DNA from: Escherichia phage 310Ecol104PP
Direction: 5' to 3' (one strand)
Sequence record: OR062946.1
DNA: 64,000 nucleotides
The notes under the pieces are model-generated. The model was given only the letters and a program-made list of their open reading frames with translations, searched no databases and had not been told where the DNA came from. A program made the position numbers and the translations under genes. Positions 10,224-22,950 of the stretch are shown here, one piece after another; the first letter of the stretch is position 1; each line of letters starts with the position of its first letter.

Positions 10224-10409
10224 TTAAAGCGTATTCACATAAGCTATTAATTCATTTTCTTTCTTATCAAACCGATCAGCAAATTCTTCCTGCTGTTCGG
10301 GAGATAGCGGGCCGTATTCATCATAAAAGGTGTTTGCTTCTATATGCTCATCTAGAAGTTCATGGATAAGCTCAAACAATTTATCTTTTTGTTCTTTACT
10401 CAGACTCAT
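10224..10409 (-). CDS. small acidic hypothetical protein (61 aa)
   Basis: ORF immediately downstream of tk. Confidence 0.4.
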   Translation of the reverse strand: MSLSKEQKDKLFELIHELLDEHIEANTFYDEYGPLSPEQQEEFADRFDKKENELIAYVNTL

Positions 10410-10575
10410 ATATTAATTTCCAGGAGTTTTAAAATAATTCGCTTTTGCTTAAATATTTCCATAGTTAAATGACCAGTATCTTTTTGACCGATTCCAATGG
10501 CAAAACCTTTATTAACAGCGAGTTCAATTAAATTATCAAGCTCACGTAACACTTCGTATTGTAACTCAAAACTAT

Positions 10576-10803
10576 TCATTTTGGTTTACCTTCTTTAACG
10601 AAATCAGGATAAGGATAAAATCCTGAATAAAATCCTTCACCTTTATGATTGATGCATCCTTTATTAGAACAATAGCACCAATAATCGAAATCACAAGCCA
10701 TTTCATCATTACATAAAGCAAAAACAACAGGCCATTTACACTTTTCACAATGGGCATGTTTAAGAATACTAGTTTGGCTCATAACCATGTAACCTTTAAG
10801 CAA
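10576..10803 (-). CDS. small Cys-rich protein, possible zinc-binding (75 aa)
   Basis: Eight-plus cysteines in CxxC-type spacing (CEKCKW ... CDFDYWCYCSNKGC). Confidence 0.45.
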   Translation of the reverse strand: MLKGYMVMSQTSILKHAHCEKCKWPVVFALCNDEMACDFDYWCYCSNKGCINHKGEGFYSGFYPYPDFVKEGKPK

Positions 10804-10991
10804 TATTCTTCTACATGTTGTTTACGACCTTTCTTATCAATAAAGGTATATTCAACGAATGTTCCAATGTAGTCTTTATCTACATCATGTGGACTATTAA
10901 TTGGACATTTAGTACGGCAAATGCGTTCCCATTGACGAATAATTTCCACTTTGTTTTTAGGATCAAACGGATGTGGGTAATGTACTTTCAT
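10779..10991 (-). CDS. small hypothetical protein (70 aa)
   Basis: ORF in tk-downstream array. Confidence 0.4.
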   Translation of the reverse strand: MKVHYPHPFDPKNKVEIIRQWERICRTKCPINSPHDVDKDYIGTFVEYTFIDKKGRKQHVEEYCLKVTWL

Positions 10992-11442
10992 AATCCACCA
11001 CTATTAAATCAATATCAGGAGTAAACATGTCGATTAATTTAGAAACCTTATCCCAATCGCCGCCAGCAATACCACAACCTATGCGTGGAATGTAAATTAC
11101 TGGTTTAAACAAAAGGGTTTCTGCCTGTAGATTTAATTCTATCATGCAGTTTACTAAAGCACCATAATCAAGATTAGGACCTGGTTCGTATTGCGTATAC
11201 AGGTTATAGCATATACCAAAACCATTAGGTTTATGTTTAAAAACAATAGACATATCGCCTAATTTATCACGAGAACCGTACTCAGTAGTGGTTTTATCTA
11301 TTTCTAAAATTTTGGGATAGGCTCTTGCTAATTGACCAGCTACACCTGAACCCATAGTATGAAAACAATTGCACCCGTGCGCAATAATATTACCTTGAAG
11401 AAATAGGGCGACAATATCGCCCTTGATATATTTTACAATCAT
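10963..11442 (-). CDS. macro domain protein, TARG1/OARD1-like (putative ADP-ribose hydrolase)
   Basis: Motifs KGDI, IIAHGCNCFHTMGSGVAG and IPRIGCGIAGGDWDKV parallel the TARG1 motifs LAHCISEDCRMGAGIA and MPRIGCGLDRLQWENV as I recall them; ATG at 11440-11442. Confidence 0.7.
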   Translation of the reverse strand: MIVKYIKGDIVALFLQGNIIAHGCNCFHTMGSGVAGQLARAYPKILEIDKTTTEYGSRDKLGDMSIVFKHKPNGFGICYNLYTQYEPGPNLDYGALVNCMIELNLQAETLLFKPVIYIPRIGCGIAGGDWDKVSKLIDMFTPDIDLIVVDYESTLPTSV

Positions 11443-13125: not shown

Positions 13126-13391
13126 TAGTATTTTTCCTCTGGTTGGAACACAGCACGGCAAGCCCACATACTTGCTTCTTTGAGTTTCGTTTTAGCAATA
13201 GTTAACTGATCGAGGCTTTCGGCGTAATTCTTCGCGAGTTCATCATCTTCACAGCTATCAAATGCTTCCCAAAATTCATCGTATAAAGCGTCAAAGATAA
13301 GTCCTAAACGAACTTCAGCGTCTTTGATAGCATTCACTTTACCGATTTTCTCTTCAGTATGCGGCTTATAACCCTTAATATCTTCAATCAT
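13125..13391 (-). CDS. small acidic protein (88 aa) at a position compatible with T4 vs.4 (Acb2); identity unverified
   Basis: Synteny only (second ORF after regB); sequence not independently recognised. Confidence 0.4.
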
Positions 13392-13605
13392 ATTTTACTT
13401 CCTCACCAGTACCTAAATCATATTCAACTAAACGAATAGGTTCATGAATGCCATATCCCTGAACAGAAATTTCTGTCGTAGGATAAATTCCATCAATATC
13501 ACCCATATTCCATGCTTCATTAAATTGCTGTTCGCCTGAATTACTAAACCATTCGGCGAAAGCATTTAGCACATCTTCAGAACCTTCAATAATTATCTTT
13601 GCCAT
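13384..13605 (-). CDS. small hypothetical protein (73 aa)
   Basis: ORF in the post-regB array. Confidence 0.4.
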   Translation of the reverse strand: MAKIIIEGSEDVLNAFAEWFSNSGEQQFNEAWNMGDIDGIYPTTEISVQGYGIHEPIRLVEYDLGTGEEVKYD

Positions 13606-22024: not shown

Positions 22025-22100
<76 letters not shown>

Positions 22101-22104
22101 GTAT

Positions 22105-22179
22105 TTGGCGGACGTGATAGGATTCGAACCTATAACCAATCGCTTAACAGGCGATCGCTCTGCCATTGAGCTACACATC
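22105..22179 (-). tRNA. tRNA-Asn (anticodon GTT)
   Basis: Cloverleaf GGATGTG-TA-GCTCAATGGCAGAGC; anticodon loop CTGTTAA; T-loop TTCGAAT; CCA encoded. Confidence 0.8.
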
Positions 22180-22183
22180 CAAA

Positions 22184-22270
22184 TTGGTGGGGAGTGATGG
22201 AGTCGAACCACCCGAGTCGCAATGACAATGGATTTACAGTCCACACCGCTACCTCTACGGGATAACTCCC
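22184..22270 (-). tRNA. tRNA-Tyr (anticodon GTA), long variable arm
   Basis: Acceptor GGGGAGT/ACTCCCC; anticodon loop CTGTAAA; T-arm GGTGG-TTCGACT-CCATC; D-stem imperfect; CCA encoded. Confidence 0.7.
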
Positions 22271-22279
22271 CAAATTAAT

Positions 22280-22354
22280 TTGGTGGCCCTGGGTGGAATT
22301 GAACCACCATCTGGCGATTATGAGTCGCTTGCTTGAACCTTCCAGCTACAGGGC
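22280..22354 (-). tRNA. tRNA with CAT anticodon (Ile2-type or elongator Met)
   Basis: Acceptor GGCCCTG/CAGGGCC; anticodon loop CTCATAA; at the position of T4 tRNA-Ile. Confidence 0.7.
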
Positions 22355-22355
22355 C

Positions 22356-22431
22356 TTGGTGCTGATTGACGGAATCGAACCGCCGACCTTCTCATTACAA
22401 GTGAGTTGCTCTACCTACTGAGCTAAATCAG
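22356..22431 (-). tRNA. tRNA-Thr (anticodon TGT)
   Basis: Acceptor GCTGATT/AATCAGC; D-arm AGCTCAGTAGGTAGAGC; anticodon loop CTTGTAA; CCA encoded. Confidence 0.8.
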
Positions 22432-22436
22432 CAAAA

Positions 22437-22526
22437 CTGGCGGAGGCGATAGGATTTGAACCTATGAGTCGCCGGAGCGACTGCCGGTTTTCAAGACCGG
22501 TGCATTAAACCACTCTGCCACGCCTC
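22437..22526 (-). tRNA. tRNA-Ser (anticodon TGA), long variable arm
   Basis: Acceptor GGAGGCG/CGCCTCC; anticodon stem CCGGT/ACCGG with loop CTTGAAA; CCA encoded. Confidence 0.8.
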
Positions 22527-22528
22527 CA

Positions 22529-22602
22529 GTCTCCATACAAGGATTTGAACCTTGGACCTCCTGATCCCAAATCAGGCGCTCTACCAAACTGAGCTACACG
22601 GA
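22529..22602 (-). tRNA. tRNA-Pro (anticodon TGG)
   Basis: Acceptor CTCCGTG/TATGGAG; anticodon loop TTTGGGA; T-loop TTCAAAT; CCA not encoded. Confidence 0.75.
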
Positions 22603-22612
22603 GTAAATTAAA

Positions 22613-22687
<75 letters not shown>

Positions 22688-22691
22688 AAAT

Positions 22692-22778
22692 TTGGTGCGA
22701 GAAGTGGGACTCGAACCCACAAGGAAATCATTCCGCAGCATTTTAAGTGCTGTGCCTTTACCAATTTGACCATTCTCG
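22692..22778 (-). tRNA. tRNA-Leu (anticodon TAA), long variable arm
   Basis: Acceptor GCGAGAA; anticodon stem CAGCA/TGCTG with loop CTTAAAA; T-loop TTCGAGT; CCA encoded. Confidence 0.8.
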
Positions 22779-22779
22779 C

Positions 22780-22852
22780 GCTGGGAATAAAGGACTCGAA
22801 CCTTTGCATCCTGGAATCAAAATCCAGTGCCTTACCAACTTGGCTAATTCCC
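22780..22852 (-). tRNA. tRNA-Gln (anticodon TTG)
   Basis: Acceptor TGGGAAT/ATTCCCA; anticodon stem CTGGA/TCCAG with loop TTTTGAT; CCA not encoded. Confidence 0.75.
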
Positions 22853-22950
22853 AATTATTAACAAAGGCTCTCTAACAAGAACCCTTGATGATAGAGGGTA
22901 TTAATCAGTGCGGTATGAGTTAATAATAACAAATAATTCTTAAAGCATAT

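What the first reader, a model, noticed from the sequence alone, without database searches (positions are those of the whole stretch)
10963..11442. Phage-encoded TARG1/DarG-like macro domain, candidate ADP-ribosylation eraser
The 159 aa protein shows the diagnostic TARG1-family motifs (HGCNCFHTMGSGVAG and PRIGCGIAGGDWDKV against TARG1 HCISEDCRMGAGIA and PRIGCGLDRLQWENV as recalled). The TARG1 family includes the DarG antitoxin macro domain that reverses DarT DNA ADP-ribosylation. A phage copy could counter host ADP-ribosyltransferase defences or tune T4 Alt/Mod-type ADP-ribosylation.
Basis: partly seen in the sequence, partly recalled or inferred. Interest (0 to 1): 0.65.

Follow-up and report, generated by a model that had tools for sequence, protein, structure and literature searches.

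The report
T4 AdfM-type anti-DarT macrodomain allele

Summary
The 159-aa ORF is real, on the minus strand (10963..11442), and both quoted motifs are present. The window is a Tequatrovirus. The protein is 100% identical to Bas39/FriedrichMiescher QXV78942 and is the syntenic ortholog (between tk.3 and vs) of T4 Tk.4, annotated "A1pp phosphatase motif" for years.

A 2025 preprint showed that deleting T4 tk.4 sensitises T4 to DarTG2 and renamed it adfM. The counter-defence idea is therefore correct and already published.

Two caveats apply. First, the catalytic Lys of DarG/TARG1 and the Asp of TARG1 are absent (invariant Gln84; Ala126). The active site instead matches SCO6735, a Gln-type macrodomain proven to cleave thymidine-linked ADP-ribose from DNA and dead as Q85A. 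However, it lacks SCO6735's long lysine-bearing loop. Second, this allele is only 57% identical to T4's, a gene-sized cassette swap in a 93-100% identical backbone, and I found no test of it.

Verdict: already known; modest residual interest.

The parts
10963..11442 (-). CDS, 159 aa: stand-alone macrodomain, ortholog of T4 tk.4 / adfM. 100% identical to Bas39 (FriedrichMiescher) bas39_0234.
   Evidence: ORF and translation; Pfam Macro; 57% identity over 155 aa to T4 Tk.4, E=1e-69; synteny between tk.3 and vs; 100% identity to QXV78942.1; AF2 pLDDT 94.7.
11335..11379 (-). aa 22-36, HGCNCFHTMGSGVAG: end of strand beta-2 plus the substrate-binding loop. Contains invariant His22 (= SCO6735 H24, TARG1 H32) and Asn25 (= SCO6735 N27, DarG N22, PhiKZ AdfM N23).
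   Evidence: Coordinates; residue mapping; invariance; mutational importance of the SCO6735, DarG and PhiKZ equivalents.
11191..11193 (-). Codon CAA = Gln84, at the position of the catalytic Lys of DarG (K80), TARG1 (K84) and PhiKZ AdfM (K78). Equivalent to the essential Gln85 of SCO6735.
   Evidence: hhalign and MAFFT agree and reproduce the published residue numbering. Q in 121/121 homologs. SCO6735 Q85A/Q85E are inactive.
11167..11190 (-). aa 85-92, YEPGPNLD: the short 'mobile loop'. It has 8 residues, as in TARG1/DarG, and lacks the +5-6 residue insertion and Lys89 of SCO6735/Bt_1257.
   Evidence: Alignment. Loop length is 8 in 94 of 121 family members and 10-12 in 27. SCO6735 loop description.
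11044..11088 (-). aa 119-133, PRIGCGIAGGDWDKV: phosphate-binding loop. Gly124 = SCO6735 G128. Ala126 sits where TARG1 has the catalytic Asp125.
   Evidence: the SCO6735 G128E mutant has reduced activity.
11296..11298 (-). Codon GAT = Asp49. Invariant in the phage family but Tyr in SCO6735/Bt_1257/DarG and Leu in TARG1. Role unknown.
11439..11442 (-). ATGA overlap: the stop codon of vs overlaps the start codon of this gene, suggesting translational coupling. An AGGA lies 13 nt upstream.
   Evidence: Sequence; ORF coordinates.
10940..11400 (.). Diverged DNA block relative to T4 (35-75% identity in most 40-nt windows) that coincides with the ORF. The flanks are 92-100% identical, so this is a gene-sized allelic cassette.
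   Evidence: Sliding identity; protein identities of neighbouring genes 93-100% against 57% for this gene.

Best explanation
The gene is an allelic variant of T4 tk.4/adfM. It encodes a single-domain macrodomain ADP-ribosylglycohydrolase made by the phage, probably early and co-translated with vs. When a host DarTG2 system is triggered, DarT2 ADP-ribosylates thymidines in single-stranded DNA at TNTC motifs and blocks phage replication. This enzyme binds the ADP-ribose in the macrodomain cleft and hydrolyses the ribose-thymine bond, restoring the DNA. The chemistry is most likely the SCO6735 type rather than the DarG/TARG1 type. Gln84, held in place by Asn25, positions the distal ribose and stabilises the transition state. 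An activated water then does the chemistry, in place of the lysine that DarG and TARG1 require. Shown here: ORF, fold, class, residue equivalences, synteny and family-wide conservation. Shown in the literature: the T4 allele is required for resistance to DarTG2, and Gln-type SCO6735 cleaves T-ADPr DNA. Inferred: that this 57%-identical allele does the same, that it acts by hydrolysis, and when it is expressed.
Against: I found no experiment on this allele in the searchable literature. It shares only 57% identity with the tested T4 protein. No biochemistry has been reported even for T4 AdfM; hydrolysis is only called 'likely'. The two lysines that position DNA in SCO6735 (K34, K89) are absent: Ser32 replaces K34 and the loop is short. 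DNA binding must therefore be organised differently. SCO6735 also inhibits DarT by direct interaction, so hydrolysis need not be the only route. I could not inspect model coordinates to confirm that Asn25 and Gln84 are in contact.
Confidence: 0.7

Rival explanations
1. The protein neutralises DarT2 mainly by binding and inhibiting the toxin, acting as an antitoxin mimic, rather than by hydrolysing ADPr-DNA.
For: Catalytically dead SCO6735 Q85A, DarG K80A and TARG1 K84A all still inhibit DarT in vitro, and SCO6735 does so most strongly. Other phage anti-DarT factors, AdfA and AdfB, are direct DarT inhibitors. A gene-sized allelic swap is what a protein-protein arms race would produce.
Against: The residues conserved in every family member are the active-site ones (H22, N25, Q84, the GxG of the phosphate loop, W130), not a surface patch. 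The protein lacks DarG's C-terminal DarT-binding domain. PhiKZ AdfM, the other phage macrodomain anti-DarT2 factor, acts enzymatically.
Confidence: 0.12
2. It is a small-molecule ADPr-derivative enzyme, as the legacy annotation 'phosphatase' implies. It would be a Poa1p-like ADP-ribose-1''-phosphate phosphatase or an O-acetyl-ADP-ribose deacetylase, serving RNA-repair by-product clearance or NAD/ADPr metabolism.
Against: The only phenotype recorded for the T4 ortholog is DarTG2-specific. Similarity to Poa1p is strong only in the N-terminal half, and by that alignment Poa1p has Ser where this family has its invariant Gln. T4's own RNA repair (Pnk/Rnl) leaves no 2'-phosphate, so there is no known source of Appr1p (established knowledge). 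Weak Appr1p phosphatase activity in vitro is common among macrodomains and is not diagnostic (own knowledge).
Confidence: 0.08
3. Its main substrate is another ADP-ribosylated macromolecule. Candidates are uracil-ADPr on RNA, Glu/Asp-ADPr on proteins, or marks written by the phage's own Alt/ModA/ModB enzymes.
For: TARG1, DarG and SCO6735 also reverse uracil-linked ADPr on ssRNA, and SCO6735 and TARG1 remove Glu/Asp-linked protein ADPr. The class is therefore promiscuous. Family members occur in about 2,770 phage records from many hosts, not all of which need face DarT2.
Against: No uracil- or Glu/Asp-directed ART is known in T4 infection. Alt/ModA/ModB make Arg-linked ADPr (established knowledge). 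CmdT's adenine-ADPr on mRNA is described as irreversible, and CmdTAC still defends robustly against T-even phages that carry this gene (abstract). tk.4 is dispensable on a plain K-12 host.
Confidence: 0.08

Closest known systems
T4 Tk.4 = AdfM (anti-DarT factor Macrodomain; HIDEN-SEQ preprint, bioRxiv 10.1101/2025.11.20.689424)
   Same: Same locus (between tk.3 and vs, with the ATGA overlap to vs), same length class, same fold, and the same invariant H22/N25/D49/N80/Y82/Q84/W130. The first 14 residues and the first 45 nt are identical.
   Different: Only 57% identical overall. The phosphate loop is GCGIAGGDW here and GAGIGKGNW in T4, and the C-terminus is four residues longer. The allele occurs in 318 phage records at ≥90% identity, against 224 for the T4 type. 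I found no test of it against DarTG2.
SCO6735 (Streptomyces coelicolor) and Bt_1257 (Bacteroides thetaiotaomicron), Gln-type ALC1-like macrodomains
   Different: Lacks their 5-6-residue longer 'mobile loop' with Lys89, and lacks Lys34 (Ser32 here). Has an invariant Asp49 where they have Tyr. Only about 26-29% identical.
DarG antitoxin macrodomain (T. aquaticus, M. tuberculosis; DarTG2)
   Different: The catalytic Lys80 is replaced by Gln. There is no C-terminal DarT-binding domain and no darT neighbour. The NCBIfam DarG equivalog scores 27.8 bits against a cut-off of 250.
Human TARG1 / OARD1
   Same: Top Foldseek hit (E=4e-10, TM 0.72/0.82). Shares the His (H32/H22), the PRIGCG...W loop and an identical loop length between position 84 and Tyr93. 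TARG1 also cleaves T-ADPr DNA.
   Different: The Lys84/Asp125 catalytic dyad is absent (Gln84/Ala126). TARG1 has Ser where this protein has Asn25.
PhiKZ gp104 'AdfM' (chimallivirus; Cell Rep 2026, PMC13309987)
   Same: A phage-encoded stand-alone macrodomain that counters DarTG2, with DNA de-ADP-ribosylation shown in vitro. It carries the same name.
   Different: A different lineage: a true DarG-type enzyme with Lys78. It scores E=1e-24 against Mtb DarG and 4e-39 against PADLOC DarG, compared with 2e-5 and 4e-7 for the window protein. BLASTP between the two proteins is barely detectable. The shared name hides two independent recruitments.
Yeast Poa1p (ADP-ribose-1''-phosphate phosphatase)
   Different: Poa1p has no Gln at the equivalent position (Ser by the alignment), and similarity in the C-terminal half is weak. 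There is no evidence for an Appr1p source in T4 infection.

Membership tests
Macro domain superfamily (Pfam PF01661) | Profile score above the curated gathering threshold | tested here: met
   33.1 bits against a cut-off of 22, E=6e-8, covering 116 of 118 profile positions.
Macro domain superfamily (Pfam PF01661) | Three-layer alpha/beta/alpha macro fold | tested here: met
ALC1-like / TARG1-like macrodomain class | Nearest structural and sequence neighbours all belong to this class, with a gap to the other classes | tested here: met
TARG1 (OARD1) | Lys84/Asp125 catalytic dyad | tested here: not met
   Gln84 and Ala126 occupy these positions in two independent alignments that reproduce the published numbering.
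DarG antitoxin (DarTG2) | Catalytic Lys80 in the P-T-K motif | tested here: not met
   The motif reads Y-T-Q, and Gln is invariant in 121/121 family members.
DarG antitoxin (DarTG2) | Conserved active-site Asn22 | tested here: met
   Asn25 aligns with it and is invariant.
DarG antitoxin (DarTG2) | C-terminal DarT-binding domain, and a score above the equivalog cut-off | tested here: not met
   The protein is a 159-aa single domain. NCBIfam NF048014 matches only model positions 2-142 of 338, at 27.8 bits against a cut-off of 250.
DarG antitoxin (DarTG2) | Encoded next to a darT toxin gene | tested here: not met
   The neighbours are the T4 genes tk.3 and vs, 93-97% identical to T4's.
SCO6735 / Bt_1257 Gln-type subclass | Gln at the catalytic-Lys position, with Asn27 and His24 partners and Gly128 in the phosphate loop | tested here: met
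   Q84, N25, H22 and G124 map onto them, and all four are invariant.
SCO6735 / Bt_1257 Gln-type subclass | Mobile loop about 5 residues longer, carrying Lys89, plus Lys34 for DNA positioning | tested here: not met
   The loop has 8 residues, as in TARG1/DarG. Ser32 replaces Lys34, and the family has A/S/G at that position.
SCO6735 / Bt_1257 Gln-type subclass | Hydrolysis of thymidine-linked ADPr on ssDNA | not testable with these tools
   This requires a gel-shift or AMP-Glo assay on a DarT2-modified oligonucleotide.
T4 Tk.4 / AdfM | Syntenic position between tk.3 and vs, with full-length homology | tested here: met
   57% identity over 155 aa, E=1e-69, with flanking genes 93-100% identical to T4.
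T4 Tk.4 / AdfM | Loss of the gene sensitises the phage to DarTG2 | not testable with these tools
   Shown only for the T4 allele. I found no DarTG2 data for BASEL T-even phages (Bas35-47, which include Bas39); they were tested against DarTG1.
PhiKZ-type AdfM (chimallivirus gp104) | DarG-type macrodomain with an N23/K78 active site and close homology to DarG | tested here: not met
   K78 aligns with Q84. PADLOC DarG scores 4e-7 here against 4e-39 for gp104. The best BLASTP segment between the two covers 33 aa at E=0.001.
Poa1p-like Appr-1''-p phosphatase | Poa1p active-site residues (H23, S30) and phosphatase activity | tested here: inconclusive
   H22 aligns with H23 and T29 with S30. The mutant structures in PDB show these residues were studied. 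Enzymatic activity cannot be tested here.

The most novel reading that the evidence does not exclude
The T-even AdfM clade is a third mechanistic subclass of TARG1-class hydrolases. It combines a Gln-type centre and a short TARG1-length loop with a family-specific invariant Asp49, and it has none of the DNA-positioning lysines of SCO6735. The gene-sized allelic cassettes that circulate in otherwise near-identical Tequatrovirus backbones would then be specificity variants. They would be matched to different DarT2 variants, to glucosyl-hmC DNA contexts, or to other thymine/uracil-directed ADP-ribosyltransferases.
Probability: 0.25. Interest if true: 0.5.

Novelty: already known. Interest (0 to 1): 0.3.

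Why it matters
It confirms that a tool-free reading of raw sequence correctly identified a real counter-defence gene. For the field, the useful points are narrower. T4-type AdfM is not a DarG copy but a Gln-type enzyme closest in its chemistry to SCO6735. Phages have therefore recruited macrodomains against DarT2 at least twice, the other case being the Lys-type PhiKZ AdfM. The gene is also exchanged as a discrete cassette among T-even phages, which marks it as an arms-race locus. These points suggest cheap experiments (allele swaps, Q84K/Q84A, D49A), but they do not open a new kind of biology.

Tried and rejected
I replaced that row with database homologs.

(2) I looked for model coordinates to measure Asn25-Gln84-His22 distances and to locate Asp49. 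None are exposed, so the spatial claims rest on alignment to published structures.

(3) I examined the genomic context of a bacterial homolog (Pelagimonas P0090) for an adjacent DarT-like gene. There was none; it is an orphan like SCO6735, which is uninformative.

(4) I checked the CmdTAC and Thoeris/N4-like papers for phage macrodomain roles. Their macrodomain mentions concern references or ThsA, not phage enzymes.

(5) I looked for DarTG2 data on Bas39 or other BASEL T-even phages carrying this allele. I found only DarTG1 data.

(6) The promoter and terminator scans around the gene did not exceed shuffled expectation for promoters (13 found against 16 expected). I therefore claim no dedicated promoter.

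(7) I considered and rejected the idea of tuning Alt/Mod ADP-ribosylation. The linkage chemistry is wrong (Arg-ADPr) and the T4 knock-out has no phenotype without DarTG2.

(8) I considered a degenerate or non-functional allele and rejected it. All family-invariant residues are intact, and the phosphate loop is closer to the family consensus than T4's.

Full report
OBSERVATION. The window holds an ATG-to-TGA ORF of 159 codons at 10963..11442 on the minus strand. The plus-strand reading of the same interval is full of stops. The human TARG1 sequence containing them matched PDB 2LGR residue for residue.

WHERE IT COMES FROM. The surrounding 3.5 kb is 99.6% identical to Escherichia phage FriedrichMiescher (BASEL Bas39, Tequatrovirus) and matches 757 T4-like phage records. 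The protein is 100% identical to Bas39 QXV78942.1, which is annotated 'hypothetical protein'. In the T4 reference the same slot, between tk.3 and vs, holds tk.4, annotated 'phosphatase; contains A1pp phosphatase motif'. The start codon overlaps the vs stop codon (ATGA), as it does in T4. The gene is therefore the syntenic ortholog of T4 tk.4, and its macrodomain nature has long been annotated.

FAMILY AND FOLD. Pfam Macro scores 33.1 bits against a cut-off of 22, and PHROG 335 ('phosphatase') gives E=1e-71. The best solved relatives by sequence are:
- Bt_1257, E=2e-10
- yeast Poa1p, E=1e-9
- SCO6735, E=8e-8
- M. tuberculosis DarG macrodomain, E=2e-5
- TARG1, E=8e-3

CATALYTIC RESIDUES. I assembled reference sequences for T. 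aquaticus and M. tuberculosis DarG, T. africanus DarG, PhiKZ gp104, TARG1, SCO6735 and Bt_1257 from PDB alignments and one paper. A profile-profile alignment (99.4% probability, E=2e-21) and an independent MAFFT alignment agree, and both reproduce every published residue number. These include DarG N22/K80, PhiKZ N23/K78, TARG1 K84/D125 and SCO6735 H24/N27/K34/Q85/K89/G128.

In the window protein the catalytic lysine position is Gln84, and the TARG1 Asp125 position is Ala126. Gln84 is not a quirk of this phage: it is present in 121 of 121 homologs down to about 39% identity. His22, Asn25, Asp49, Asn80, Tyr82, Gly122, Gly124 and Trp130 are likewise invariant.

WHY THAT DOES NOT KILL THE FUNCTION. 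SCO6735 from Streptomyces coelicolor, and its structural twin Bt_1257, have exactly this substitution. Hloušek-Kasun et al. (PMC9411070) showed that SCO6735 lacks the Lys and Asp of TARG1/DarG yet removes thymidine-linked ADP-ribose from DarT-modified ssDNA faster than either. It also rescues E. coli and S. coelicolor from DarT. Q85A and Q85E inactivate it completely, and N27S nearly so. The authors propose that Gln85, locked by Asn27, positions the distal ribose while an activated water performs the chemistry.

Window His22, Asn25, Gln84 and Gly124 map onto SCO6735 His24, Asn27, Gln85 and Gly128. The fit is not complete. The phage family lacks the 5-6-residue longer 'mobile loop' with Lys89 that defines the SCO6735/Bt_1257 subclass, and it lacks Lys34. 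Its loop has the 8-residue length of TARG1 and DarG. It also has an invariant Asp49 where the others have Tyr or Leu, and I cannot explain that residue. A family HMM scores Bt_1257 at 67.9 bits, TARG1 61.6, SCO6735 56.8, the DarGs 43-48 and PhiKZ gp104 31.8. The clade therefore sits between the SCO6735 and TARG1 groups and is further from DarG proper.

WHAT IS ALREADY KNOWN. LeRoux and colleagues noted that T4 lacking both adfA and adfN stays resistant to DarTG2, and they predicted a further factor. The HIDEN-SEQ preprint (bioRxiv 10.1101/2025.11.20.689424, Nov 2025) screened a T4 transposon library on a DarTG2 host. It found tk.4 as the single significant hit and confirmed that a clean deletion sensitises T4. 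The authors noted structural similarity to Mtb DarG and renamed the gene adfM. They considered enzymatic removal of ADPr from DNA 'likely' but did not test it.

Independently, Morgan et al. (Cell Rep 2026, PMC13309987) gave the same name to PhiKZ gp104 and showed DNA de-ADP-ribosylation in vitro. That protein is a genuine Lys-type DarG relative (E=1e-24 to Mtb DarG) and is barely alignable to the window protein. The two 'AdfM' proteins are thus separate recruitments of the macrodomain. Macro domains occur in about 41% of myoviruses, and relatives of this protein occur in about 2,770 phage records. Their presence in a T-even phage is unsurprising.

THE ALLELE. The window protein is only 57% identical to T4 Tk.4, whereas the neighbouring proteins rI.-1, rI, rI.1, tk, tk.3, vs, vs.1 and regB are 93-100% identical. 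At the DNA level the diverged block runs from about 10940 to 11400. This is essentially the ORF after codon 14, with 92-100% identity on both sides. The first 45 nt, including a hairpin, are identical to T4.

The window-type allele is found at ≥90% identity in 318 phage records. The T4 type is found in 224, with another 159 at 80-90%. This is a gene-sized cassette exchange, typical of arms-race loci. I found no report testing the window-type allele against DarTG2; BASEL T-even phages were tested against DarTG1 only.

MECHANISM AND RIVALS. My best explanation (confidence 0.7) is that the protein hydrolyses DarT2-installed ADP-ribose from thymidines of phage ssDNA using an SCO6735-like Gln/Asn centre. 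The rivals are:
- Toxin binding rather than hydrolysis (0.12). It is supported by SCO6735's interaction-inhibition of DarT. It is weakened because the conserved residues are active-site ones and no DarT-binding domain is present.
- The legacy Appr1p-phosphatase or OAADPr-deacetylase role (0.08). Poa1p similarity supports it, but there is no substrate source and the only known phenotype is DarTG2-specific.
- Another macromolecular substrate such as U-ADPr RNA or protein ADPr (0.08). The class is promiscuous, but no relevant writer is known. Alt/Mod make Arg-ADPr, and CmdTAC still restricts T-even phages that carry this gene.

VERDICT. The finding is already known: the macrodomain annotation is long-standing, the anti-DarTG2 role was reported in 2025, and Gln-type chemistry was described in 2022. 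Three points carry residual interest. T4-type AdfM has an SCO6735-like Gln centre combined with a TARG1-length loop and a unique invariant Asp49. It is a lineage distinct from PhiKZ AdfM. It circulates as discrete allelic cassettes. I score interest at 0.3.

LIMITS. No biochemistry or genetics can be done here. Residue equivalences rest on sequence and profile alignments validated by published numbering, not on inspection of model coordinates. Expression timing is inferred from T4 knowledge, not from this window.

Noticed in passing
window 10224..10803 (minus strand): The stretch between tk and tk.3 differs from T4. A 61-aa ORF is only 54% identical to T4 tk.2. A 57-aa ORF (PHROG 3452) and a Cys-rich 75-aa ORF (PHROG 2306; CEKCKWP...CNDEMACDFDYWCYCSNKGCINH) have no counterpart in the T4 tk-vs interval, and T4 tk.1 is missing. 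All are of unknown function. This is a second variable spot, right next to the adfM cassette.
   Followed up: partly
window 11405..11423: A perfect 8-bp GC-rich hairpin (AGGGCGATATTGTCGCCCT) lies 20-38 nt inside the ORF. The hairpin is conserved in T4, and the first 45 nt of the ORF are identical to T4; divergence from T4 starts just after the hairpin. It could be a recombination boundary, an RNA-processing or translation element, or chance.
   Followed up: partly
window 11296..11298 (Asp49 codon): Asp49 is invariant in all 121 phage-family homologs, but the aligned residue is Tyr in SCO6735, Bt_1257 and DarG, and Leu in TARG1. No role could be assigned without model coordinates.
   Followed up: partly
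window 10963..10991: The 3' end of this gene overlaps the start of the tk.3 homolog by 29 nt, whereas the overlap in T4 is 4 nt. The reason is that this allele is four codons longer.
   Followed up: no
window 22025..22853 (minus strand): A cluster of 10 tRNA genes: Arg, Asn, Tyr, Met(CAT), Thr, Ser, Pro, Gly, Leu and Gln. From my own knowledge T4 has 8, so Asn and Tyr appear to be extra in this phage. I did not compare this directly with T4.
   Followed up: no
window 13384..13605 (minus strand): The 73-aa ORF in the position of T4 vs.5 matches it over only 18 residues, while its neighbours vs.4 and vs.6 are 95-98% identical. This is another small replaced segment in the same early-gene region.
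   Followed up: no
literature, not the window: The name AdfM is used for two non-orthologous phage macrodomains: T4 Tk.4 (Gln-type, this family) and PhiKZ gp104 (Lys-type, a true DarG relative). GenBank labels for this gene also vary among 'phosphatase', 'Poa1p-like', 'macro domain protein' and 'hypothetical protein'.
   Followed up: yes
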